DNA of 64,000 bases from a virus. Taxonomy: Duplodnaviria > Heunggongvirae > Uroviricota > Caudoviricetes. The stretch lies in the IMG/VR virus record IMGVR_UViG_2778261268_000002; one strand, written 5' to 3'. The notes beneath the pieces were generated by a model. That model was given only the letters and a program-made list of their open reading frames with translations. It had not been told where the DNA came from and did no database searches. Shown here piece by piece: positions 7,832 to 38,204 of this stretch; the first letter of the stretch is position 1; every line of letters starts with the position of its first letter. Both the position numbers and the translations under genes were made by a program.

Positions 7832-8187
7832 AGCACCACGTCCTGTGTGATAGTTATATCCCTGATACGAATGGATATTTTCAACTTATCAAAAGCATCT
7901 CCCTCGGCTACTGACAAGCCAGAAATCGGTATGTCGGGTAAATCTACCGTCAGTTTTTGCAAAAGCATTGCCTCAACCGCAATTTGAACATGTGACAAGT
8001 TGGTCGGTTCGTGTTTAAACTGCGGTAAAACATTGCCCCATGACGGATCTCCGTATACCTCACCCTGATAAGTGTTTAGCCACTCATATAAACGAGCGCC
8101 CCAGGCCTCCTCCTGGGACTCATACGTTTTTACGCCGGATAACTCCAGCGTCAGTAAAGGATCAATTTCATTATTGTTGGCCATCAA
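7828..8187 (-). CDS. Small baseplate-region protein (possibly GPW/gp25-like)
   Basis: 119 aa; coupled to the flanking baseplate genes. Confidence 0.4.
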   Translation of the reverse strand: MMANNNEIDPLLTLELSGVKTYESQEEAWGARLYEWLNTYQGEVYGDPSWGNVLPQFKHEPTNLSHVQIAVEAMLLQKLTVDLPDIPISGLSVAEGDAFDKLKISIRIRDITITQDVVL

Positions 8188-11100
8188 TCAACTCTCGCGT
8201 AGTCATTCATCAACGGATCATCAATTGACAGTGGCACCGTGCGCATAACGCCCGGTTGAGGCGTGCTGACCTTTACGACAGTTCCCTGGCCTTTCGCCGA
8301 GTCTTTAGTGTGCTCTTCAATCCTGGCAAGCAATGAGGTCATCTGCGCAAACAGCCGCTTCGTTTCACCATCAAGTGAAACGGTATTATCAGCCAACTGC
8401 ATTGTCGGCTTGGCACCGGAGCCGCCAAGGTCACTAATAACCTGTCCGTCTATCTGCATACGACCGGTTGGTTGCTGCAAATCGTTGGCGGCAGTCGTCA
8501 CCTGGGACGTGGAGGCTGGTTCAGGCGCATTATTTTTCCGCATCCCCGGCGAGTTGCGGAGTTTATCGAATAGTCCATCAATCCCCATTTGTGCGCCGAG
8601 TTGGTCAAAGTAACTTGAGTTGCTGGCCACCGGACGCGCCTCTTCAACTGGCATCGGAGTATCAACATACACATTGCCAGCTGCTGTTGCGGTCCCCTTC
8701 CCTCGTGCACGTTCTTCGAGCGTTCCCTGAACGACTTCCCGACGCATACCCCGGCCATTCATGAATTTGTTGACCAGATCGTTAACGCCAACAGCATTGC
8801 CGATTTTGTCTACCAGACCGCCTTTCTCAAACGGGCTATCACCAGGGGTAAACGCCAGGCCAGTAGACTGATCGATAACGGCGTTATCAGGTATCTTTTC
8901 GTAAATTGCTGGTGCGCTATGATCTACCTTAGAGCCATAAACGGCACCATTATTGAGCATCTGCTGATACCCTCTGACACGAGTAACATATTCGCCGGTA
9001 CCTGCGACTACTCTCCCCTTATCAACATGCCCCATACCAGCATGATAGGCAGCTATTGCACGACCCTGATCACCGTTATAACGGTTCATCAGCATACTTA
9101 GGTATCTGGCGGCACCATCAGCTGCTTTTCGTGTATCCATGGCATCAGCATCGCTGAGTCCAAGATCCTCCCTTGTACCTTTAGTGATCTGAAAAGCCCC
9201 AAGGGCAGATGAAAGTTTGTTCCCGTTTTTGTCTACTGGATTTCCAGTTCTCTGGCCTGCACTAGACTCTGCGGATGCAACTGCTGACAGAATCCCTTTT
9301 TCAAGCCCATACTTACGTTCAAGCTCATCAAAATAATCGGCATTGTCAGAAATCCATTGGTATCCGGCAGCATTTAATTTTGGCAAAGAAACATCCTTGC
9401 CATTGTTAAATCGACGTTTATCTATCTCATATGCACTTAATGCTTCCTCCTTACCTGTAGCAGACTGCCCCAAGGCAGCATCAATTGTTTGTGCTGCTTT
9501 ATTTCCTGTTTCTACGGCATTTGCATTGATAATCTGATTAGCAGTTTCTTTAACTGTTTTATTGCTATCTTTCGCCATATCCAGGGCCGCATTTATCACG
9601 CGGGCAGCAATATTAGTCTGTTTGGCATCGGATTCAGTTTTAGAATCAGATGTCCCCTGGTGGCTATTAACCGGAGCTTTTAACTCTGGAGTGATTTCTT
9701 TCGCATTAGCCTCGCCGATCGGATTGGGTATTTTTGATACAATCATTGCCGCAGGGGTATTTTTAACGGCATCAACCGCTGCATCTAATGCTTTACCTGG
9801 TAAATTTTTAACCCCATCCCAAATATTACCAGCCGCCTCTTTAATGTGTTTCCCTGGGTTCTTAATGAAATCAATTGCACTATCAATTGCATCACTGAAA
9901 ACCTGTTTCAGGTTATCGACAGTAAAGAAGTCTTTGATGGCATCCAGCTTTTCAAGCAGCTTATTAGATGTATCGCTAAACCATGCTGAAACAGCATCAC
10001 CAATCTTTGCTGTGTAATCATCGAACTTGGTAGAAATGGTGTCGCCAAGGTTAGAAATATATGTTTCTAAGTTGGTAATCCCACTATCAATGGCCAGGGC
10101 AATACTTTCCGTCGAAAATGATTGCAACATATTGCCGATATCCTCAAATCCAAGTGATTTGAGAACCTCACCAATGGCGCTGCTAATACCAGATACCAGT
10201 CCCCCCATATCAAGAACATTAGCTAACGTATAAGCGGCTTTTTGCTGGAATGATGGATCTTGCCCTGATTTAAGCCCAAACGCTCGACGTTGCGCTTCTG
10301 TATCATTCCAACCGGTTACCGCATCATAAATACCTCCAGCCACTGTGCCGACTAGGGGAATTGCGCGTAACGCCCCTTTACCAACTGCCTTTAATCCAAG
10401 TTTACCTGCTGCCCGGGCAGCCAAATCTCCGCCTTCATGGGCGAGAGTCTTCTTGCCACCACCGCGTAGCATTCCTACAAGTTTCTTTGCCCCCAGAGCG
10501 CCAAAAGCGAGTGCTCCAGCTTTTTTCAGCATGCCACGCCCCATTAACAACGACGCGACGCCACCGGCCCCCTTCCCTAACAGGCTAAATAATTTGGACA
10601 GCAAGCCGCCCTTCTTTTTCCCGGTGTTTTTGGCTATCTGATCAAGGGCGCTGAGAATCTTGTCATTGCCCTCTTTAATTTCGCTGGTCTGATCCTGAAG
10701 TTCCTGAACCGTCCGTTTTTGGGTGTTAACCTGAACGACATCGGCACTATTTTGCGATTTACGCCTAAAAAAACCTTTTCTACGGCTGTTATCGTCATTG
10801 CCACGAATCACATCGGCAATAGACTTTCTGGCACCATTAAGCGATCCACCAACTTCTTTTGATATCCCGCCAAGCTCCTTCCCTGCGGCCCACAATGGAC
10901 CAGCAACGGCATAACCTAACGCATCGACGGCACGAGTCTCTGAAGGGTTACCTATGCCTTCAGCTACTTTTGACAGTTTTTTTAATAAACCTGATTCAGC
11001 ATTTAGACGCTCATCATCCTCTTTTCGCCTGGCCTTTTCTGCTCGTTCAGCACGGGCATCTTCCGCTGCGGCCTTACTCCCTGACTTTCCAATAAAACGA

Positions 11101-16249: not shown

Positions 16250-16399
16250 GTATTTTTAAGTCACGAATGCTATCTTTTCGCATCATATTGACCTTTTAAT
16301 CGTTCAGGCTTATAGTTCCGCCGTCGTAGCAAATTCTGCGACCAGGTTTGACAGCCTGAATGATTGTGCGGACAACCGCAGATTTCCGATATTGCGGTA

Positions 16400-16520
16400 T
16401 TTTTGTGTCCGTTAAACCGCGTTACGCCCAAATTATGGTGGGGCGTGATGGGGAGGCTTCGGCCTGCTGGTTTCACAATCGCCAGTCTGTCAACCCTGTC
16501 ACGTCCTGCCACCTGTTTGA
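16400..16520 (+). ncRNA. Candidate c4-type antisense regulatory RNA (boundaries approximate)
   Basis: Non-coding leader between operator and icd/ant with stable hairpins (GGCTTCGGCC, ACGCCC...GGGCGT) and segments complementary to downstream leader sequence. Confidence 0.25.
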
Positions 16521-17989: not shown

Positions 17990-18790
17990 ATGCAACAAAC
18001 ATTCAATGCGGATATGAATATATCAAACCTTCATCAAAATGTCGATCCTTCAACCACTCTGCCCGTTATTTGTGGTGTTGAAATTACGACCGACCGCGCT
18101 GGCCGTTACAACCTTAATGCTCTACACAGAGCGAGCGGACTCGGTGCCCATAAAGCGCCAGCTCAATGGCTAAGAACGCTGTCAGCTAAACAGCTCATCG
18201 AAGAGCTTGAAAAAGAAACTATGCAGAATTGCATAGTTTCGTTCGAAGGCCGTGGCGGCGGCACTTTTGCCCATGAATTGCTCGCAGTGGAGTACGCTGG
18301 TTGGATTTCTCCCGCGTTTCGGCTGAAGGTAAACCAGACATTTATCGACTATCGAGCTGGAAGATTACAACCTGCTATTCCGAAGAGCCTCCCAGAAGCT
18401 CTCCGTTTGGCTGCCGACCTGGCAGAGCAAAAGCAACGGCTGGAGCAAAAAATGCTGATGGATGCACCTAAAGTCGAATTCGCCGAACGCGTTGCTACCG
18501 CCAGCGGGGTTCTAATCGGCAACTATGCCAAAGTGCTCGGCCTGGGCCAAAACTATCTCTTCACCTGGTTGCGTGATAACGGAATTCTGATCGCAACCGG
18601 TGAACGCAGGAACGTCCCCAAACAAGAATACATATCCCGTGGGTATTTCACCCTTAAAGAAACCGTGATCGATACAAGCAATGGAAGCAGGATTTCTTTC
18701 ACGACTCGTATAACCGGCAAAGGTCAGCAGTGGCTGATGAAGCGATTGCTTGATGCTGGTGTGCTGGTACCTGTCGCGGCAACGCGCTAA
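17990..18790 (+). CDS. kilA: KilA (KilA-N domain plus KilAC domain)
   Basis: 266 aa; N-terminal VICGVEITTDRAGRYNLNALHRASGLG; C-terminus paralogous to Ant. Confidence 0.7.
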   Translation: MQQTFNADMNISNLHQNVDPSTTLPVICGVEITTDRAGRYNLNALHRASGLGAHKAPAQWLRTLSAKQLIEELEKETMQNCIVSFEGRGGGTFAHELLAVEYAGWISPAFRLKVNQTFIDYRAGRLQPAIPKSLPEALRLAADLAEQKQRLEQKMLMDAPKVEFAERVATASGVLIGNYAKVLGLGQNYLFTWLRDNGILIATGERRNVPKQEYISRGYFTLKETVIDTSNGSRISFTTRITGKGQQWLMKRLLDAGVLVPVAATR

Positions 18791-18819: not shown

Positions 18820-19665
18820 ATGCTGGCTAAAGTCACTTTCCTGAGCTGTATAACGATGAGCGATTTTACTTTTTCTGGCTATGAATTGGCCTGCTTTGTA
18901 ACACACTCCGGTCTATCCCGTAGCGCCGGGCATATCCTGTCGCAATGTGCAAATCTCGCGGCAACAACCAGTGAATACTTCATTCACAAGCCTCACCGCC
19001 TGATCGCGGCAGAAACTGGTTATAGCCAATCAACCGTCGTTCGTGCATTCCGTGAAGCTGTAAACAAAGGAATCCTGTCTGTAGAGATTGTTATCGGCGA
19101 TCACCGTGAACGTCGCGCTAACCTGTACCGGTTTACACCATCCTTTTTGGCCTTCGCACAACAAGCCAAAAATGCGCTGATTGAAAGCAAATTAAAGATC
19201 TCTTCAGCCGCAACCAAGGTTAAAGCTGTTCTCGCTAAGACATTGGCTTTATTTGATTTTTTATCCACACCCCCATGTCAAAATGATACCCCCTCCCCCT
19301 GTCAGGATGACGTGGCAATAAAGAATAAGAAGTCACAAATTAAAAAAACAAAAAGATCAGTTTCCGGCGGTGCCGGAACGACCAGACTCAAAAAATTGAC
19401 TTCATGGATCGCTGAGGCAAAAGCAAAGGCTGACAATCTGCGGTTATCCAAAAAACGCGCTCAAAAACATGAGTTCAAGCAGAAAGTAGAGGCGGCAGCG
19501 CGGAAATATACTTACCTGAAGAACAAGCGTTCTCCTGATATTAGCGGGATATCAAACTTCGATAATCTGCCGCATTGCATGACGGTAAACGAAGCTCTTA
19601 ATGCGGTTTTAGCCAAAAATAAAGATAACGAAAAATGGGGTATACCGGCAGGATTCAGAGGGTGA
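18820..19665 (+). CDS. repL: Lytic replication initiator (RepL-like)
   Basis: 281 aa immediately downstream of kilA; basic, helix-turn-helix-like N-terminal region; size and position as for P1 RepL. Confidence 0.55.
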   Translation: MLAKVTFLSCITMSDFTFSGYELACFVTHSGLSRSAGHILSQCANLAATTSEYFIHKPHRLIAAETGYSQSTVVRAFREAVNKGILSVEIVIGDHRERRANLYRFTPSFLAFAQQAKNALIESKLKISSAATKVKAVLAKTLALFDFLSTPPCQNDTPSPCQDDVAIKNKKSQIKKTKRSVSGGAGTTRLKKLTSWIAEAKAKADNLRLSKKRAQKHEFKQKVEAAARKYTYLKNKRSPDISGISNFDNLPHCMTVNEALNAVLAKNKDNEKWGIPAGFRG

Positions 19666-19928
19666 TAGATTGCTCTAATCTGGAGTCACCTGGCATTTTC
19701 AGTTTGAGGTCGGAGATGCAATCTGATTTTTACAGTTAGCGATCACTTTTTGCAGGGCATCGTTGAGACATATCCATATATAAAAACCCAAAGCCAGATC
19801 AAAACTTGTACTGATAAAAACACAGCTAACCATCACAACTTGTAACGTTTATAATGAGTAAAAGAGTGATACATTGCTACTTTTACATATTTTTTGACTT
19901 AATTCATGGATAGTAATGGAGATGCATA

Positions 19929-20984
19929 ATGACTTATGCTGGCACACAAACAGCAGATAACGCCGGGGATACCATGAAATCGTATGCTATTTGGAATAAT
20001 AAAGGTGGCGTAGGAAAGACCTACTTATCTTTCGCTATGGCCTGTGAATACGCAAGGCAAAATCCAGAAAAGCGTATTATTTTTGCAGATATGTGCCCGC
20101 AGGCTAACTTATCTGAAATATTGCTCGGCGGTAACGGTACTGGTGCTGCTAACCTCGCGAGCTTAATTCAACAACGAAAAACTGTCGGTGGGTACTTTGA
20201 CAGAAGAACTCGCAGCCCCCACATGCTTACCGGTTCAGAAACAAGTTTCTTAATTCATGTCTCTGAAATTAACGGGCATGTCCCTGACAATGTATTTTTG
20301 ATTGCAGGCGACCCAAGCCTGGAAGTTCAGGCGCAAGTAATCAATCAGTTAAGCAGCGTAAACTTACCAGTTGACTCATGGAAAAGCATCCACCTGTGGC
20401 TACGAGATTTGCTTGTTGCATGTGCACAACAACAAGGTATCGAAGAAACCATTTGCTTTATTGATTGCAACCCCAGTTTCTCTGCCTATACCGAACTATC
20501 ACTGATAGCAGCAAATGCAATTATAATACCTTGCTCAAGTGATGGTTCTTCGGCTCGAGCAGTGGATAACCTAAGCCAGTTGGTTTATGGCGTTGGAGTA
20601 CAAAACGATTATCGTTCTGTTAACTTTTACGATCGGTGTCAACAGTTTGGTCTAGCGGTTCCTGTCATTCATTCTCTAGTTTTTAATCGTTCGACAGAGT
20701 ATGACAAACGAGCAAGTAAAGCGTTTTCGGCAATGTTCGACGAAATCAGGGATAGAGCTGAAAATCTGCGGACGAATAAACCAACAGCGTTCCAAGGCGG
20801 AAATTTAAAAACGTTTACTGTGCCAGATAACCATTCCGTAGCTATAGTATCTTCCCATCTAGGAAGACCTCTATTTGATATAAAACCAGGCAGATATCAG
20901 ATCCATGATACTGAGCCACAAATCAATAATGAACCATTAGAAAGATATGGTGCAGCAATCGAACGTCTTGTTCAGAGTTTATAG
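19929..20984 (+). CDS. ParA/MinD-family P-loop ATPase (orphan)
   Basis: Deviant Walker A AIWNNKGGVGKT; probable start at ATG 19974; no adjacent ParB-like gene. Confidence 0.65.
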   Translation: MTYAGTQTADNAGDTMKSYAIWNNKGGVGKTYLSFAMACEYARQNPEKRIIFADMCPQANLSEILLGGNGTGAANLASLIQQRKTVGGYFDRRTRSPHMLTGSETSFLIHVSEINGHVPDNVFLIAGDPSLEVQAQVINQLSSVNLPVDSWKSIHLWLRDLLVACAQQQGIEETICFIDCNPSFSAYTELSLIAANAIIIPCSSDGSSARAVDNLSQLVYGVGVQNDYRSVNFYDRCQQFGLAVPVIHSLVFNRSTEYDKRASKAFSAMFDEIRDRAENLRTNKPTAFQGGNLKTFTVPDNHSVAIVSSHLGRPLFDIKPGRYQIHDTEPQINNEPLERYGAAIERLVQSL

Positions 20985-21010
20985 TGGCTTATCTCACTCA
21001 TAATGGCTAA

Positions 21011-21042
21011 AAAAAGGCTGCAACAGAGGTTGCAGCCTTTTT
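21011..21042. terminator. Bidirectional rho-independent terminator
   Basis: AAAAAGGCTGCAAC-AGAG-GTTGCAGCCTTTTT between convergent genes. Confidence 0.65.
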
Positions 21043-21054
21043 TATAAAATTACA

Positions 21055-21342
21055 TTAACAGACTGGTAGCGATAGTAAATTATTATTCCATCGATTGTCT
21101 GCATACGTTCTAATAAACTGCCTTCCACCATTACCAGGATTAACAACCCCAACTTCTACACGATTACCTGCATTATCTGTTACATAGAATGTATGGAGAT
21201 TATTATCAATAGCATTAATTACCTGCTCAACAGTCCATTTCCCATTGCTAGTATTAAATTGAGGACTTCCCACATGAGTAATATGCTCATGGATTGATTG
21301 CGAGCCGGAGAGGGTAATGCAAGTAATGCGTACATCAGCCAT
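21055..21342 (-). CDS. Small conserved protein (DUF3892-like)
   Basis: 95 aa from ATG at 21342 (RBS AAGGAAG); MADVRITCITLSGS...HITHVG...FYVTDNAGNRVEVGVV; AT-rich. Confidence 0.45.
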   Translation of the reverse strand: MADVRITCITLSGSQSIHEHITHVGSPQFNTSNGKWTVEQVINAIDNNLHTFYVTDNAGNRVEVGVVNPGNGGRQFIRTYADNRWNNNLLSLPVC

Positions 21343-21630
21343 ATATACTTCCTTTATTCTATAGATTATAGGAATTGCGTTGTCCAAAAAACAAACAACA
21401 CAATAACAATAAAGAAACATACACACAACAAAAACTAACGCTATTTATTGATAGATTTGCCTGATGAATGCTAGCTCTCTTTGCTGCCTAGCACTCAAAC
21501 AAATAACAGAAGAAAGCCCCAGATAACATTACGCGTCCTGCAAGACGCTTAACATTAATCTGAGGCCATATCCATGCTTAGCATATCTAGATTAACCCTC
21601 TCCCCTTTTAAGGAGCAAGGAATTTTACTG

Positions 21631-22227
21631 CTATGCCGCCTTTCCAGTTATGGATTCAGCGACAAGAACAACCCCATGCTTACTTCGATCTGGGTGTTCA
21701 CTCCATATCTCAGATTCAGGAATACTTACCCCGTCATAGCAAACACGTTCGCCGTCAAACGGGTAATACTGAGCGGCATCGGTGTCGAGGATAAACACTT
21801 TTAGCTCGGAAGAGCGACGGGCGATGTGTTGCCAAAGAGCTTTTCCACCTTCGTATTGCTCATTATCACTAAGCAAAACAACACCAGCTTTTGAGGCTAC
21901 GGTTTCGTAAACAAAAGTAGCTAAACCGACATCACGGACGGTTCCATCAACCACGATACCTTCAATCTGGGCAACATCGCTATCCTCCCAGAACTTCCTT
22001 ACCAGTACGCCTTCAAGCTGCGGGCGACGTTGAAGTTCAAGAGTAGCGACAACCTTATGGCGCATATCACCATCGATAACAGAAGGCGCAGCCTCTATTA
22101 CAGCTGCAAATGGGGTTTTGGAATCCCATATAACCTGGTAAAGCACACCCTGGATGGTAACTCCGTCCAGGATCGAAAATCGACGAGCGACAGTACCCGG
22201 GGAGTACGACATTGGAATCACAGCCAT
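21631..22227 (-). CDS. Hypothetical protein
   Basis: 198 aa from ATG at 22227 (RBS AAAGGGGGA). Confidence 0.5.
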   Translation of the reverse strand: MAVIPMSYSPGTVARRFSILDGVTIQGVLYQVIWDSKTPFAAVIEAAPSVIDGDMRHKVVATLELQRRPQLEGVLVRKFWEDSDVAQIEGIVVDGTVRDVGLATFVYETVASKAGVVLLSDNEQYEGGKALWQHIARRSSELKVFILDTDAAQYYPFDGERVCYDGVSIPESEIWSEHPDRSKHGVVLVAESITGKAA

Positions 22228-22360
22228 TTTAGAGTCCCCCTTTAACAGTACAGGCACAAACATCTACCTCAATAATTGTAGTTTATTAGAACATTAATAA
22301 TCTAACATAAAACTCCAGACAATGTTATCGATGCATGTTTATATAAAATAGTTATAAAAA

Positions 22361-27943: not shown

Positions 27944-28945
27944 TTAAGGCTTCGGCTTTTTATCGAGGCTCTTTCTAAGGATATGCCCAATCATCCTGTC
28001 GAGTTCTTCCTGTAACTCTTTTGAGAGTCGATTAAACTCATAAGAAAATGCACGGCCTTTCACGCGCTTCCTTGCAAAGCGATCCTTGTCCTCAAATTTC
28101 CATAATTCAGTAACTACGGACTTATCTTTAGAACCTTTATCCGTGAGTAGTGAGGCTTCCTTTGTTATCAAGCGCAGGATTTTATTTTTAACTTCATCTT
28201 CGGCCATTTCTTCAATGGATAAGATGTCGTTTATTTCCGGGGATATGTTTTGAATAAGCTGATCAAACTCTAAATTCTTGTTCCCCATTTCGTCGCCAAC
28301 AGCACAAAGCGTTTTGTAGTCCGAAAAGGTTAATTCCGACTGCACAGGGAAAAGGGCGACTAATTCTTCCGGAGCACTCGCTGCCTGGAGAGCACGCGTG
28401 ACCTTCGCCTGAGACAGCCCTTCTTTGGCTGCAATATCCTTCTGACTCATCCCATCATTTTTCATTCGCATCAAACGCAGACCTATTTCTCGAATGCTGT
28501 GCTGCAATGCTGTCTGAACGTCTTTCGCTAAATTTTGCGCTTCCTGAACGCTGATCTCCTGATCCGTGACTAAAACCCGCAACCCTACGTTCTCTAAGAT
28601 GGCAGAAGCTCGACGCCGGGAACCATCCAAAATTTCAATTTTCCCTGTAGCCCGTCTAACACCTATTGCAGGGTAAAATTGCTGATGCTTAATAGTGCTT
28701 CGGATACTTTTTAATGATTTTGGCGTAAGAGATGCCTGGTCACGCCCGTTGTTATGCTGATCAACAAAGGTATCGCTTTCTACCTGGTTCGGAGGTATTA
28801 CCTCTTCAATAAATGTGGCCTGGCGACCAGTTGATAACTTGAATACCTGCTCGACTCGATCGCCAGAGGCTGAAGAACTATCAAATCCGCTTAATATTGA
28901 AGGATTAAGGGTTCGCCCAATTGTTGGTCTGTTTTTCTTTGACAT
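27944..28945 (-). CDS. parB: Partition protein ParB
   Basis: 333 aa; N-terminus MSKKNRPTIGRTLNPSILSGFDSSSASGDRVEQVFKL...; ParB box and HTH region; recognised as P1-type ParB. Confidence 0.9.
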   Translation of the reverse strand: MSKKNRPTIGRTLNPSILSGFDSSSASGDRVEQVFKLSTGRQATFIEEVIPPNQVESDTFVDQHNNGRDQASLTPKSLKSIRSTIKHQQFYPAIGVRRATGKIEILDGSRRRASAILENVGLRVLVTDQEISVQEAQNLAKDVQTALQHSIREIGLRLMRMKNDGMSQKDIAAKEGLSQAKVTRALQAASAPEELVALFPVQSELTFSDYKTLCAVGDEMGNKNLEFDQLIQNISPEINDILSIEEMAEDEVKNKILRLITKEASLLTDKGSKDKSVVTELWKFEDKDRFARKRVKGRAFSYEFNRLSKELQEELDRMIGHILRKSLDKKPKP

Positions 28946-28961
28946 GGGGGTTTCTTACTCC

Positions 28962-30158
28962 TCAGTTAGATCTGATAAATTCAATACGGTCAAAAACTGC
29001 TTTAGCAAAATCTTCCGCGGCAATTCGCGCGTTCTTCAATGCATCAGCACTACCAACATACGTTGCCGGGTTAGCTGAAATAACAGTGTCAAAAGACTCG
29101 CCGCAACGTTCAAAACCGTCAAGGCGAGGGAGGACGACATCGAGCATATCCCCACCGAACACTTCTTTAGCCAGGCTATGGCAATACTTATGATCTGCCT
29201 TGTTACTCAACTTGGACATAAAACCAATGTTAGTCGCAAGCTGGCACTCGCAGCCTTCATCCGAAATGAGTTTCACCAACTCAGGAAGGCGGGCAACGTA
29301 TTTAAGCGATGAGTGGAAATCGACAGTTGCTGGCGGCAGAGGTGTAAACAGTATATTGGCCGAGGCCAAAGCATTTTTCAGGAAGGCGTCAAGGTGAGGA
29401 CCACTATCAACGAGGATAAAGTCATAATCGCTCTTCAGCTTATCAATCACATTTTCTTTCAGGACAGCATGGATGTTCTGACCCGGTAGATGCTCATTGC
29501 ACAGCTCTCTCCAATCGGATGCAATAAAGGCATCGTCAATCGACGCAGGCATAACGTCAACCCCAGGTACAACAGAAGGAACAATAAACTCCTCTAACAG
29601 CTCTTCACGGCTTACATTCTGCAACATAGCCTGTGCAGATGTTGCGTTTACGATACCAATAGAGTGTTTATGGCTTAAAAACATCGTTGCTGAAGATTGC
29701 GGATCAAGGTCAATAACCAGAATCCTTAAATCTTCCATCAGAAGATGAGGGTGGGCACGCATTGCATGCGCCAGAGAAACCGTCGATACAGTTTTTGACA
29801 CACCGCCTTTAAGATTGGAGATGAAAATCACATACGCTTCGCTGTAGCGATCCCGGTATTTTGGCACTCCGCGATGTTCATATATGTCAATGATGTTCTG
29901 AATTGACATCGCATATTTCATTGAAGAGCCAGCAGGACGTTTATCGAAAACATAACCCTTTTCTTCCATTTCACTTACGGCATAGTCAACGTTCGCTCGA
30001 GTCAGTAGAGGCAATTTTGCCAGTGCCGCTTTCGCATAGACCTGGTAAAACTCGTTCGCGTGTAGCTCATCCTTTTGCAACTGTACTTGTTCAGTCAGAA
30101 CATTGAGCATTCTGTTTGCTCTTTGAGCAACCTTGTGAAGCTGGCTGGAATCACTCAT
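28962..30158 (-). CDS. parA: Partition ATPase ParA
   Basis: 398 aa; Walker A ISNLKGGVSKT; N-terminal DNA-binding extension; recognised as P1-type ParA. Confidence 0.9.
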   Translation of the reverse strand: MSDSSQLHKVAQRANRMLNVLTEQVQLQKDELHANEFYQVYAKAALAKLPLLTRANVDYAVSEMEEKGYVFDKRPAGSSMKYAMSIQNIIDIYEHRGVPKYRDRYSEAYVIFISNLKGGVSKTVSTVSLAHAMRAHPHLLMEDLRILVIDLDPQSSATMFLSHKHSIGIVNATSAQAMLQNVSREELLEEFIVPSVVPGVDVMPASIDDAFIASDWRELCNEHLPGQNIHAVLKENVIDKLKSDYDFILVDSGPHLDAFLKNALASANILFTPLPPATVDFHSSLKYVARLPELVKLISDEGCECQLATNIGFMSKLSNKADHKYCHSLAKEVFGGDMLDVVLPRLDGFERCGESFDTVISANPATYVGSADALKNARIAAEDFAKAVFDRIEFIRSN

Positions 30159-38050: not shown

Positions 38051-38126
38051 GATGGTGTAGCTCAGCGGTTAGAGCGGTTGACTGTTAATCAACGGGTCGA
38101 TGGTTCAAATCCATCCACCATCGCCA
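38051..38126 (+). tRNA. tRNA-Asn (anticodon GTT)
   Basis: Cloverleaf with acceptor GATGGTG/CACCATC, anticodon loop CTGTTAA, T-loop GGTTCAAATCC, encoded CCA. Confidence 0.9.
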
Positions 38127-38128
38127 AT

Positions 38129-38204
38129 GCCGGTTTAGCTCAGTTGGTAGAGCGCCTGCCTTGTAAGCAGGATGTCAGCGGTTCGAGTCCGTTAACCGGC
38201 ACCA
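38129..38204 (+). tRNA. tRNA-Thr (anticodon TGT)
   Basis: GCCGGTTTAGCTCAGTTGGTAGAGC..., anticodon loop CTTGTAA, T-loop GGTTCGAGTCC, encoded CCA; 2 nt after tRNA-Asn. Confidence 0.9.

What the first reader, a model, noticed from the sequence alone, without database searches (positions are those of the whole stretch)
19929..21426. Orphan ParA-like ATPase convergent with a DUF3892-like gene, separate from the parAB system
A second deviant-Walker-A ATPase sits 8 kb from the true partition operon with no ParB-like partner or obvious centromere repeats. It converges on a small DUF3892-like gene across a strong bidirectional terminator, and both flanks are AT-rich. Its role (replication-linked positioning, or something unrelated to partition) is open.
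Basis: partly seen in the sequence, partly recalled or inferred. Interest (0 to 1): 0.45.

Follow-up and report, generated by a model that had tools for sequence, protein, structure and literature searches.

The report
Solo ParA-like cargo gene in P1
The second "ParA" of this P1-type phage-plasmid is not a spare partition motor: it is a solitary, widely travelled ATPase gene that, with an unrelated small DUF3892 gene, fills a known cargo hotspot, and it is a good candidate for a new conflict or phage-exclusion gene, although nobody has tested its function.

Summary
A 351-aa ParA/MinD-class ATPase (19929-20984, +) converges on a 95-aa DUF3892 gene (21055-21342, -) across a perfect 15-bp bidirectional terminator. 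The real P1 parA/parB lie 7-8 kb away.

The two genes form a 1751-bp cassette (19757-21507) in the repL-proximal "variable region 5" of P1-like phage-plasmids. Other alleles at this site carry P7 RapA/RapB (PADLOC candidate defence system PDC-M04) or a Hok toxin.

They are not a conserved pair. None of 83 other ParA-like loci has a DUF3892 gene, a recurrent ParB or any conserved partner.

The ParA-like protein belongs to a compact family that keeps about 57% identity across phyla. It recurs:
- directly downstream of the cI repressor in six temperate-phage contexts, the position of rexAB in lambda;
- as a passenger of IS1/IS1595 insertion sequences, including three identical IR-bounded copies in one genome;
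- on 3.5-5 kb ColE1-type plasmids.

None of these settings needs partition. The catalytic Walker A' aspartate is an invariant cysteine.

Most likely it is an autonomous accessory conflict or exclusion gene. The function and the mechanism are inferred, not shown.

The parts
19757..21507 (.). 1751-bp cargo cassette holding both genes, their AT-rich upstream regions and the shared terminator. It replaces 260 bp of phage vB_EcoM-673R5.
   Evidence: Flanks are 97-99% identical to P1-like phages up to 19756 and from 21508. The cassette is present whole in 40 PLSDB plasmids and 38 of 5426 complete E. coli genomes, always on P1-like plasmids.
19929..20984 (+). Solo ParA/MinD-class ATPase, 351 aa. The family core starts at Met16 (19974). 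Motifs are KGGVGKT, DMCPQAN (Cys in place of the catalytic Asp), IDCNPSFS and PCSSDGSSARA.
   Evidence: Pfam and PHROG matches. Family alignments A1 and A6. AF2 model with pLDDT 87.9, whose best PDB matches are Soj, ParA and McdA at E about 1e-11. Profile alignment to PDB ParA proteins.
19850..19855 (+). Candidate -10 hexamer (TATAAT) for the ParA-like gene, inside the cassette. It is preceded by two imperfect direct repeats of about 31 nt (19780-19810 and 19814-19844).
   Evidence: Read directly from the sequence. Repeat families D10 and D16. The consensus scan did not call it because the -35 is poor. Inferred, not shown.
21010..21043 (.). Bidirectional intrinsic terminator shared by the two convergent genes.
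   Evidence: 15-bp perfect inverted repeat with a 4-nt loop, flanked by an A-run and a T-run. dG -25.3 kcal/mol, z -5.3.
21055..21342 (-). Solo DUF3892 gene, 95 aa, with invariant Cys8, His23 and Cys95 and an HEHITHVG motif. It has its own SD (21348-21354) and a TATAAT -10 (21365-21370 on the + strand).
19669..19679 (+). Core half (ATTGCTCTAAT) of a C1 repressor operator just after the repL stop codon. Its 3' half differs from the consensus. The breakpoint with P7 lies at 19679/19680.
   Evidence: The P7 record annotates Op(rap) at this place. Alignment. The site is not found at 3 or fewer mismatches to the 17-mer consensus, whereas 9 other operators are.
18820..19665 (+). repL, the lytic replication initiator. 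It is the left anchor of the hotspot and is context only.
   Evidence: Annotated RepL in P1 and P7 records at 98-99% identity.
27944..30158 (-). The true P1 partition operon: parB 27944-28945 and parA 28962-30158. Context only, not part of the feature.
   Evidence: PDB matches to 3EZ2 (E 1e-264) and to 2NTZ/1ZX4.

Best explanation
The region holds two unrelated, independently transcribed accessory genes ('morons'). They were dropped as one 1.75-kb cassette into the hypervariable repL-rlf-pmgF hotspot of a P1-like phage-plasmid.

The ParA-like gene does not partition the plasmid and does not work with DUF3892. It belongs to a compact, highly conserved family of solitary ParA/MinD-fold ATPases. 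The family moves horizontally on insertion sequences, temperate phages and small plasmids.

Its most likely role is a self-contained conflict function expressed in the carrier cell: exclusion of, or defence against, incoming phage or other foreign DNA.

Proposed mechanism, which is inferred. The protein binds ATP and forms the sandwich dimer typical of the class, since the signature Lys, P-loop Lys and Walker B Asp are all invariant. The water-activating Asp of Walker A' is an invariant Cys, so the ATP dimer would be long-lived or conditionally hydrolysed. In that state it would bind a universal target, most plausibly DNA, and block replication, segregation or packaging of an invader or of the infected cell.

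DUF3892 is a separate small conflict-associated protein, possibly a metal-binding sensor.

What is shown: the anatomy, the cassette boundaries, the lack of any partner, the distribution, the positional recurrence and the motif change. What is inferred: expression in the lysogen, the defence role and the mechanism.
For: (1) Hotspot. The cassette is a clean replacement between conserved flanks. The site is the published variable region 5 of P1-like phage-plasmids (PMC9603915). Other alleles carry P7 RapA/RapB, which match PADLOC candidate defence PDC-M04A/B at E 1e-95 and 5e-52, or a Hok/Gef toxin.

(2) Solo gene. In 83 loci from bacteria and archaea, clustering of all ORFs within 5 kb finds no conserved neighbour except transposases. 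There is no DUF3892 hit (phmmer and profile HMM) and only one weak ParB-like hit.

(3) rexAB-like position. The gene lies directly downstream of cI on the same strand in six contexts: a Serratia prophage, where 32-nt inverted OR/OL-like repeats bracket cI plus the ParA-like gene; two further enteric prophages; Pseudomonas phage phi297, 71% identical; Klebsiella phage ST11-VIM1phi8.2, 35% identical; and a Salmonella Infantis element.

(4) Mobility without any need for partition. It is a passenger of IS1595 and IS1-like elements in about 20 of 83 loci. One genome has three identical 2272-bp copies bounded by 23-nt terminal inverted repeats. It is cargo of 3.5-5 kb ColRNAI plasmids. The ORF GC is below the locus GC in 82 of 89 loci.

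(5) Family traits. About 57% identity across phyla and mean column identity of 65%. An invariant D-x-C-P-Q aligns with the D-x-D-P-Q of Soj, of P1 ParA and of 3PG5. No domain fusions were found.

(6) DUF3892 proteins have been linked to defence operons, by Burroughs & Aravind 2020 as cited in bioRxiv 10.1101/2022.04.27.489752. Here they sit in a phage satellite, an ICE island and a DUF2188 operon.
Against: No experiment exists for any family member. The only published comment found is that phi297 has a parA without a parB (PMC3564109).

Neither protein matches any of the 5027 PADLOC v2.0 models.

Immediate neighbours in environmental genomes are mostly housekeeping genes. Only about 6% have defence-type hits, which is weak enrichment at best.

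Expression in the lysogen is not shown. The promoter calls are weak, and a C1 half-operator lies upstream.

The effect of the Asp-to-Cys change on hydrolysis is inferred from mutants of other ParA/MinD proteins.

Position next to cI and in hotspots is also compatible with other lysogenic-conversion functions.
Confidence: 0.5

Rival explanations
1. The ParA-like ATPase and DUF3892 form a two-gene system, with DUF3892 as sensor or adaptor and the ATPase as motor or effector.
For: They are always together within P1-like plasmids: 40 PLSDB records and 38 E. coli genomes carry the whole cassette, and none carries half of it. They share one terminator.
Against: The genes are convergent, not operonic. 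No DUF3892 gene lies within 5 kb of the ParA-like gene in 83 loci, nor next to the 90%, 85%, 71% and 70% identical relatives. DUF3892 homologues have other partners (FRG, DUF2188) or stand alone. Co-occurrence at 99-100% identity reflects one recent acquisition, not selection for the pair.
Confidence: 0.07
2. It is a second partition or positioning ATPase for the plasmid, or for lytic replication complexes. It would use the host nucleoid and an unrecognised adaptor, or the P1 ParB.
For: It has the ParA/MinD fold with the signature lysine. It lies next to repL in a region historically named 'replication-linked'. phi297 authors and phage-plasmid surveys read such genes as partition markers.
Against: There is no ParB, adaptor or centromere repeats. 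Only about 6% of P1-like plasmids carry it. The family occurs in integrated prophages, in chromosomal IS copies and on multicopy ColE1-type plasmids, none of which need partition. The catalytic Asp needed for the ParA cycle is Cys. It has no N-terminal HTH like type Ia ParA and shares only Walker A similarity with P1 ParA.
Confidence: 0.05
3. It is a mobility accessory factor: an ATP-dependent DNA-binding protein that helps IS1/IS1595-type transposases choose or avoid targets, analogous to MuB, TnsC or IstB. The P1 and prophage copies would be leftovers.
For: It is tightly adjacent to IS1595 or IS1-like transposases in about 20 of 83 loci, within the terminal inverted repeats. One element has three identical copies.
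Against: About three quarters of the loci have no transposase, including all phage, P1 and ColE1 contexts, yet the protein stays intact and highly conserved. No IS ends flank the window copy. Its orientation relative to the transposase varies. To my knowledge no ParA-fold transposition ATPase is known.
Confidence: 0.1
4. It modulates host physiology or acts as an anti-defence or addiction factor. For example it could mimic or titrate host ParA/MinD partners, acting on division, DnaA or chromosome segregation to favour carriage of the element.
For: Soj/MinD-class proteins regulate replication initiation and division (established knowledge). A lysogen-expressed position and IS passenger status fit any host-benefit or addiction gene.
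Against: The family spans bacteria and archaea at about 50-57% identity. That argues for a universal target rather than lineage-specific host proteins. No antitoxin-like partner is conserved. There is no direct evidence either way.
Confidence: 0.18

Closest known systems
Chromosomal/plasmid ParA (Soj, type Ib ParA, McdA) of the ParA/MinD P-loop class
   Same: Same fold: Foldseek E about 1e-11 and TM 0.5-0.57 to Soj, ParA 8RAY and McdA. It has the deviant Walker A with signature Lys, a Walker B IDCxPS, and a C-terminal P-x-N/H-S...G-x-P-L segment that parallels Soj's IPRNVRLSEAPSHGKPI (the Soj sequence is from my own knowledge).
   Different: About 17% identity and about 80 extra residues. The catalytic Asp of Walker A' is an invariant Cys. 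There is no ParB, McdB or other adaptor gene and no centromere. It is encoded in IS elements, integrated prophages and multicopy plasmids.
P1 ParA (type Ia), encoded in the same window at 28962-30158
   Same: Both are deviant Walker A ATPases carried on the same replicon.
   Different: Only a 69-aa Walker A stretch aligns, at 30% identity. P1 ParA has an N-terminal regulatory/HTH region, the motif VIDLDPQ, and adjacent parB and parS. The orphan has none of these.
Lambda rexAB and other immunity-region exclusion genes
   Same: Same genomic position: directly downstream of cI on the same strand, inside the immunity region, in six temperate-phage contexts.
   Different: No sequence or fold relation. 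It is a single gene. An exclusion phenotype has not been tested. The window copy is not next to a repressor gene but in a P1 cargo hotspot.
DIP2308 of Corynebacterium diphtheriae (PDB 3PG5), an uncharacterised 361-aa ParA-like protein
   Same: Similar length and the best sequence match among solved structures (E 1.8e-08 over residues 16-217). It also has long inserts.
   Different: It keeps the catalytic Asp (VDCDPQCN). Identity is only about 20%, and its function is also unknown.
DUF3892 (PF13031) proteins of predicted conflict systems
   Same: The 95-aa gene is a full-length single-domain member. The literature links the domain to defence operons and to Min-Wnt effector fusions.
   Different: Here it is solitary, without the HTH/peptidase, DUF2188 or effector partners. 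No solved structure resembles the model.

Membership tests
ParA/MinD (SIMIBI) P-loop ATPase superfamily | Deviant Walker A KGGxxGK[ST] with an N-terminal signature lysine | tested here: met
   NNKGGVGKT is invariant in 19 and in 10 aligned members. Pfam AAA_31 at 5.9e-15.
ParA/MinD (SIMIBI) P-loop ATPase superfamily | ParA/MinD three-dimensional fold | tested here: met
   AF2 model with pLDDT 87.9. Foldseek probability 1.00 to Soj, ParA, McdA and MinD.
ParABS-type partition ATPase (type Ia/Ib ParA) | Catalytic Asp in Walker A' (D-x-D-P-Q; Soj D40/D44, MinD D40) | tested here: not met
   The motif is D-M-C-P-Q, and the Cys is invariant across both branches of the family. The role of the Asp comes from established knowledge of Soj/MinD mutants.
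ParABS-type partition ATPase (type Ia/Ib ParA) | Cognate adaptor (ParB, ParG or similar) encoded adjacent, usually in the same operon | tested here: not met
   None in the window. There is no recurrent neighbour in 83 loci and only one weak ParB-like hit. None in phi297, as the authors also state.
ParABS-type partition ATPase (type Ia/Ib ParA) | Centromere-like repeats next to the operon | tested here: not met
   Only short two-copy matches in 19650-21620, apart from two imperfect direct repeats of about 31 nt at 19780-19844.
ParABS-type partition ATPase (type Ia/Ib ParA) | Carried by low-copy replicons that need active segregation | tested here: not met
   The family occurs in chromosomal IS copies, integrated lambdoid prophages and 3.5-5 kb ColRNAI plasmids.
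ParABS-type partition ATPase (type Ia/Ib ParA) | ATP-dependent dimerisation, non-specific DNA binding and adaptor-stimulated ATPase | not testable with these tools
   Needs biochemistry.
DUF3892 (Pfam PF13031) | Full-length match above the gathering score | tested here: met
   57.7 bits against a cutoff of 22.3, covering profile positions 1-71 of 71. PHROG 8224 at 1e-37.
Known or candidate anti-phage defence systems (PADLOC-DB v2.0) | Match to any of the 5027 protein models | tested here: not met
   No hit at E <= 0.1 for the ParA-like, DUF3892 or adjacent 210-aa protein.
P1-like phage-plasmid variable region 5 (rlfA-rlfB-pmgF site) cargo | Lies between conserved repL and the bplB/pmgG backbone, with alternative contents in related elements | tested here: met
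   Breakpoints at 19756/19757 and 21507/21508. Alternative alleles occur in P1, P7 and 673R5. Published description in PMC9603915.
Passenger gene of an IS1/IS1595-family transporter IS | Adjacent transposase, with terminal inverted repeats enclosing both genes | tested here: not met
   Met for relatives (L075-077, L018, L021, L023, L037, L069). Not met for the window copy, which has no transposase and no flanking IRs.
Intrinsic (rho-independent) bidirectional terminator | GC-rich hairpin flanked by an A-run upstream and a T-run downstream | tested here: met
   AAAAAAGGCTGCAAC-AGAG-GTTGCAGCCTTTTTT, dG -25.3 kcal/mol, z -5.3. The simple scanner did not list it. Termination itself was not tested.

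The most novel reading that the evidence does not exclude
The ParA-like gene is the founding member of a new single-gene immune or exclusion system built on a ParA/MinD ATPase. Its catalytic aspartate is replaced by cysteine. The system is spread across bacteria and archaea by insertion sequences, temperate phages (in the rexAB position), phage-plasmids and small plasmids. It acts as an ATP-locked or redox-gated dimer on foreign, or on the cell's own, DNA.
Probability: 0.3. Interest if true: 0.75.

Novelty: new variant of a known kind. Interest (0 to 1): 0.55.

Why it matters
Three reasons.

1. If the ParA-like protein is an exclusion or defence factor, it would add the ParA/MinD fold to the list of immune ATPases. 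So far this fold is known for positioning cargo. It would be a one-gene system small enough to ride inside insertion sequences.

2. It gives a cheap, direct test. The gene is 1 kb and sits in E. coli plasmids that are already in strain collections.

3. There is a practical consequence. Orphan ParA genes of this family are currently read as partition markers. That reading can misclassify integrative phages such as phi297 as phage-plasmids, and it suggests partition functions that are probably not there.

The analysis also shows that the repL-proximal hotspot of P1-like elements carries conflict cargo (PDC-M04-like RapAB, Hok, this cassette). That is useful when mining phage-plasmids for new systems.

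Tried and rejected
- PADLOC, NCBIfam and PHROGs gave only generic ParA labels or nothing.
- The PDB sequence search and Foldseek found only canonical ParA, Soj, McdA and MinD plus the uncharacterised 3PG5.
- The afdb50 fold library was unavailable.
- Longer family members were checked for domain fusions and none was informative.
- I looked for a conserved partner by clustering all ORFs within 5 kb in 83 loci. Only antisense artefacts and transposases recur.
- I looked for IS ends or long repeats around the window copy and found none.
- Rfam in the cassette gave only sub-threshold hits (terminator look-alikes and a sok remnant).
- The second 'ATTGCT' motif at 19867-19879 is not a credible C1 operator; it matches 7 of 11 core positions by my own count.
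- Literature searches for DUF3892, ISNwi1, the WP accessions, phi297, and ParA plus defence found no functional study.
- A defence-island argument from immediate neighbours is weak, because most neighbours are housekeeping genes.
Full report
**What the window is.** It is a P1-type phage-plasmid.
- The c4 antisense RNA and its targets lie at 16310-16516.
- icd/ant, kilA (17990-18790) and repL (18820-19665) match P1 and P7 records at 98-99% identity.
- parB (27944-28945, -) and parA (28962-30158, -) are near-identical to the solved P1 proteins: 3EZ2 at E 1e-264, and 2NTZ/1ZX4.
- The region of the finding is 100% identical to plasmid NZ_CP077443.1 of E. coli O111:H8 SF4-1.

**Check of the observation.**
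- ORF 19929-20984 (+) encodes a 351-aa protein with NNKGGVGKT. It matches Pfam AAA_31 (5.9e-15), CbiA, and PHROG 164, 'ParA-like partition protein'.
- It converges on a DUF3892 gene (PF13031, 57.7 bits against a cutoff of 22.3). The real extent of that gene is 21055-21342 (-). All 112 homologues are about 89-99 aa and start MADV/MxDV. The ATG is preceded by AAGGAAG. The 123-aa GTG-started ORF that ends at 21426 is an over-extension.
- Between the genes lies AAAAAAGGCTGCAAC-AGAG-GTTGCAGCCTTTTTT (21010-21043). It has dG -25.3 kcal/mol and z -5.3, and none of 200 shuffles folds as well. With an A-run on one side and a T-run on the other, it can terminate in both directions.
- Both upstream regions are AT-rich: GC 0.30-0.35 against 0.43 in the ORF.
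- The start of the ParA-like gene is ambiguous. The family core begins at Met16 (19974). The ATG at 19929 has a GGAG 7 nt upstream, and that arrangement is conserved in the 85% and 90% identical relatives.

**The two genes are one cargo cassette in a known hotspot.**
- Compared with phage vB_EcoM-673R5, the window is collinear at 97-99% identity up to 19756 and again from 21508. In between, 1751 bp replace 260 bp.
- P7 diverges from 19680 and carries rapA, rapB and upf52.1 at this site. A P1 isolate (MH422554) carries a hok-family toxin, MokW/Hok.
- This is 'variable region 5 (rlfA, rlfB, pmgF)' of P1-like phage-plasmids, one of eight described low-GC variable regions (PMC9603915).
- The cassette is present whole in 40 of 661 matching PLSDB plasmids and in 38 of 5426 complete E. 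coli genomes, always on P1-like plasmids and never as half a cassette.
- P7 RapA and RapB match the PADLOC candidate defence system PDC-M04 (A: 1e-95; B: 5e-52). The alternative contents of this site are therefore conflict genes.

**The ParA-like gene is a solitary gene from a distinctive family.**
- A search of 5.8 billion proteins found 4521 relatives. The top 120 are mostly 333-360 aa and 55-60% identical, although they come from Desulfovibrio, Halomonas, Acidiferrobacter, Patescibacteria and others.
- An exhaustive profile search of 1.84 billion 50%-identity representatives found only 164 clusters at E <= 1e-30. The family is compact and well separated from ordinary ParA.
- The 19-sequence alignment has 65% mean column identity. 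Invariant motifs are KGGVGK, DMCPQAN, GDPSLE, DCNPSF, PCxxDGSSARA, NRST, ASKAF and PDxHS.
- A 35-40% identical branch keeps the same hallmarks.
- A scan of one genome per species found 344 species with the gene. They include Archaea (Hodarchaeota, Methanoperedenaceae, Micrarchaeota) and the distribution is patchy. The ORF GC is lower than the locus GC in 82 of 89 loci, median -7.9 points. This is the signature of horizontal transfer.
- I clustered all ORFs within 5 kb in 83 loci. Nothing recurs except antisense artefacts and transposases.
- Neither a single-sequence search nor a profile HMM finds a DUF3892 gene in any locus. P1 ParB gives one weak hit.
- The 150 immediately flanking genes are mostly unrelated housekeeping genes. 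IS1595 or IS1 transposases are the only repeated family. A few defence genes appear: GmrSD, NsnA, PD-T4-2, ShosA and restriction-modification genes.
- Longer family members carry no additional Pfam domain.

**Where the gene recurs.** Three settings stand out, and none needs a partition ATPase.
1. *Temperate phages.* The gene lies directly downstream of the cI repressor on the same strand, opposite cro. This holds in six contexts:
   - a Serratia prophage, 85% identical, where 32-nt inverted repeats at the cro/cI intergenic region and downstream of the ParA-like gene bracket [cI + ParA-like] as OR and OL do;
   - two further enteric prophages, about 70% identical; one reads Cro | S24-peptidase cI | 194 aa | ParA-like;
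   - Pseudomonas phage phi297, 71% identical;
   - Klebsiella phage ST11-VIM1phi8.2, 35% identical;
   - a Salmonella Infantis element.

   In lambda this is the position of rexA and rexB (established knowledge).
2. *Insertion sequences.* About 20 of 83 loci have an IS1595-family or IS1-like transposase abutting the gene. IS-type terminal inverted repeats enclose both genes in several loci. One Vicinamibacterales genome has three 2272-bp copies, 99.96-100% identical, bounded by 23-nt terminal inverted repeats. That element is an active IS with this gene as its passenger.
3. *Small plasmids.* The 35-40% branch is cargo on 3.5-5 kb ColRNAI (ColE1-type) plasmids of Klebsiella, Enterobacter and E. 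coli, and on an 8.5-kb Acinetobacter plasmid.

**Structure and catalytic site.**
- The AF2 model (pLDDT 87.9, pTM 0.89) has a ParA/MinD fold. Its best PDB matches are Soj, ParA 8RAY and McdA, at E about 1e-11, TM 0.5-0.57 and about 17% identity.
- The protein has about 80 extra residues, in a conserved insert between Walker A' and the GDPSLE segment and at the C-terminus.
- Profile alignments place the family's VDMCPQAN against VDLDPQG (mycobacterial ParA-like), VDCDPQCN (3PG5) and VIDLDPQ (P1 ParA). The second Asp of D-x-D-P-Q is the residue whose mutation blocks hydrolysis and locks the ATP dimer in Soj and MinD (established knowledge). Here it is an invariant Cys.
- The signature Lys, P-loop Lys, first Asp and Walker B Asp are all kept.
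- I infer that ATP binding and dimerisation are retained, but that hydrolysis is slow, partner-dependent or thiol-gated. This has not been tested.

**DUF3892.**
- The 95-aa protein is a single-domain member. Its relatives are solo 89-99 aa proteins with invariant Cys8, His23 (ITHVG) and C-terminal Cys95, and a near-invariant HEH. This suggests a metal site (my inference).
- Homologues lie in quite different conflict-type settings: as a lone opposite-strand gene in a phage-satellite-like element (AlpA, HDPD, capsid, primase); upstream of an FRG-domain gene in an ICE island; and upstream of DUF2188.
- The literature links DUF3892 to defence operons and to Min-Wnt effector fusions.

**Interpretation.**
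- The simplest reading is that the cassette joins two independent accessory genes, each with its own AT-rich promoter region and a shared terminator.
- The ParA-like gene is not a partition ATPase for this plasmid. It fails four defining features of ParABS ATPases: the catalytic Asp, an adaptor gene, a centromere and a low-copy replicon context.
- Three observations point to a self-contained conflict function: its repeated rexAB-like placement in temperate phages of several genera; its placement here in a hotspot whose other alleles are a candidate defence pair and a Hok toxin; and its success as an IS passenger. Exclusion of, or defence against, incoming phage or DNA is the most probable form.
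- Conservation across bacteria and archaea argues for a universal target such as DNA.
- I put about 0.5 on 'autonomous conflict/exclusion cargo'. The specific ATP-locked DNA-binding mechanism deserves much less.

**Rivals.**
- A two-gene system with DUF3892 (0.07).
- A cryptic partition or positioning role (0.05).
- A transposition helper (0.10).
- A host-physiology, addiction or anti-defence factor (0.18).

**What is known.** No experimental work on any member was found. The phi297 authors noted a parA without a parB and speculated about unstable lysogeny (PMC3564109). A phage-plasmid census counted such ParA genes as plasmid traits (PMC7969092). Neither protein matches PADLOC v2.0.

**Verdict.** The pairing with DUF3892 is incidental. 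The ATPase belongs to an uncharacterised, mobile, solo ParA-fold family that is a credible and easily tested candidate for a new conflict gene.

Noticed in passing
window 21508-21597 (weak Rfam sok hit 21466-21635): Remnant of a hok/mok/sok locus leader. It is 95.6% identical to the region upstream of MokW/Hok in P1 isolate MH422554 and matches hok loci in most E. coli chromosomes. The toxin ORF itself is gone: similarity ends at 21597, where the 210-aa gene begins. The Rfam sok score is 23.7 bits, below the gathering score of 59.
   Followed up: partly
window 21631-22263 (-): A 210-aa ORF of unknown function (PHROG 7522, E 4e-147; no Pfam, NCBIfam or PADLOC hit). It belongs to the same variable region. 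It is present in phage vB_EcoM-673R5 but absent from P7 and P1 MH422554.
   Followed up: partly
L003 (phage P7) 5235-6403: P7 RapA and RapB, annotated as 'putative replication associated proteins', match the PADLOC candidate defence system PDC-M04A/B (E 1e-95 and 5e-52). RapA is a DUF3800 protein. The 'replication-linked' naming of this P1/P7 region is therefore probably misleading.
   Followed up: partly
L075, L076, L077 positions 7883-10154 (Vicinamibacterales MAG OZ250139.1): Three copies (99.96-100% identical) of a 2272-bp IS1595-family element. Each has 23-nt terminal inverted repeats (GGGGATTATAAATATTACTTGAC...) and carries the ParA-like gene as a passenger, convergent with the transposase. 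IS1-like elements with GGTAGTGGGCCAGTTTGA ends carry the same passenger in L018, L021, L045 and L069.
   Followed up: partly
window 19780-19810 and 19814-19844: Two imperfect direct repeats of about 31 nt (about 71% identical by my count, 34-bp spacing). They lie just upstream of a perfect TATAAT (19850-19855) in front of the ParA-like gene. They could be a regulator-binding site or chance.
   Followed up: no
window 19669-19679: Only the conserved 5' half (ATTGCTCTAAT) of a C1 operator survives directly after the repL stop codon; P7 annotates a full Op(rap) there. The P7/window breakpoint lies inside it, so the operator may be a recombination boundary. Nine full C1 operators elsewhere in the window match the 17-mer at 3 or fewer mismatches, against 0.4 expected by chance.
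   Followed up: partly
window 21055-21342 (-) and alignment A5: The solo DUF3892 subfamily has invariant Cys8, His23 and C-terminal Cys95 plus a near-invariant HEH motif. This suggests a metal-binding site that the literature I read does not mention.
   Followed up: no
L107 (Pseudomonas phage phi297) 4959-6011; PMC7969092: Orphan ParA genes of this family are counted as plasmid-partition traits in phage-plasmid surveys. In phi297 the gene sits in the immunity region next to cI, so it is probably not evidence of a plasmid lifestyle.
   Followed up: partly
L109/L110 (3.5-5 kb ColRNAI plasmids of Klebsiella): Tiny multicopy plasmids whose cargo is a ParA-like gene of the distant branch plus DUF2251, DUF6530 and an 85-aa ORF convergent with it. 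All are uncharacterised.
   Followed up: no
window 38051-38201 and 40190-40262: Three tRNA genes (Rfam 65-75 bits), as expected for P1-type phages. They are unrelated to the finding.
   Followed up: no
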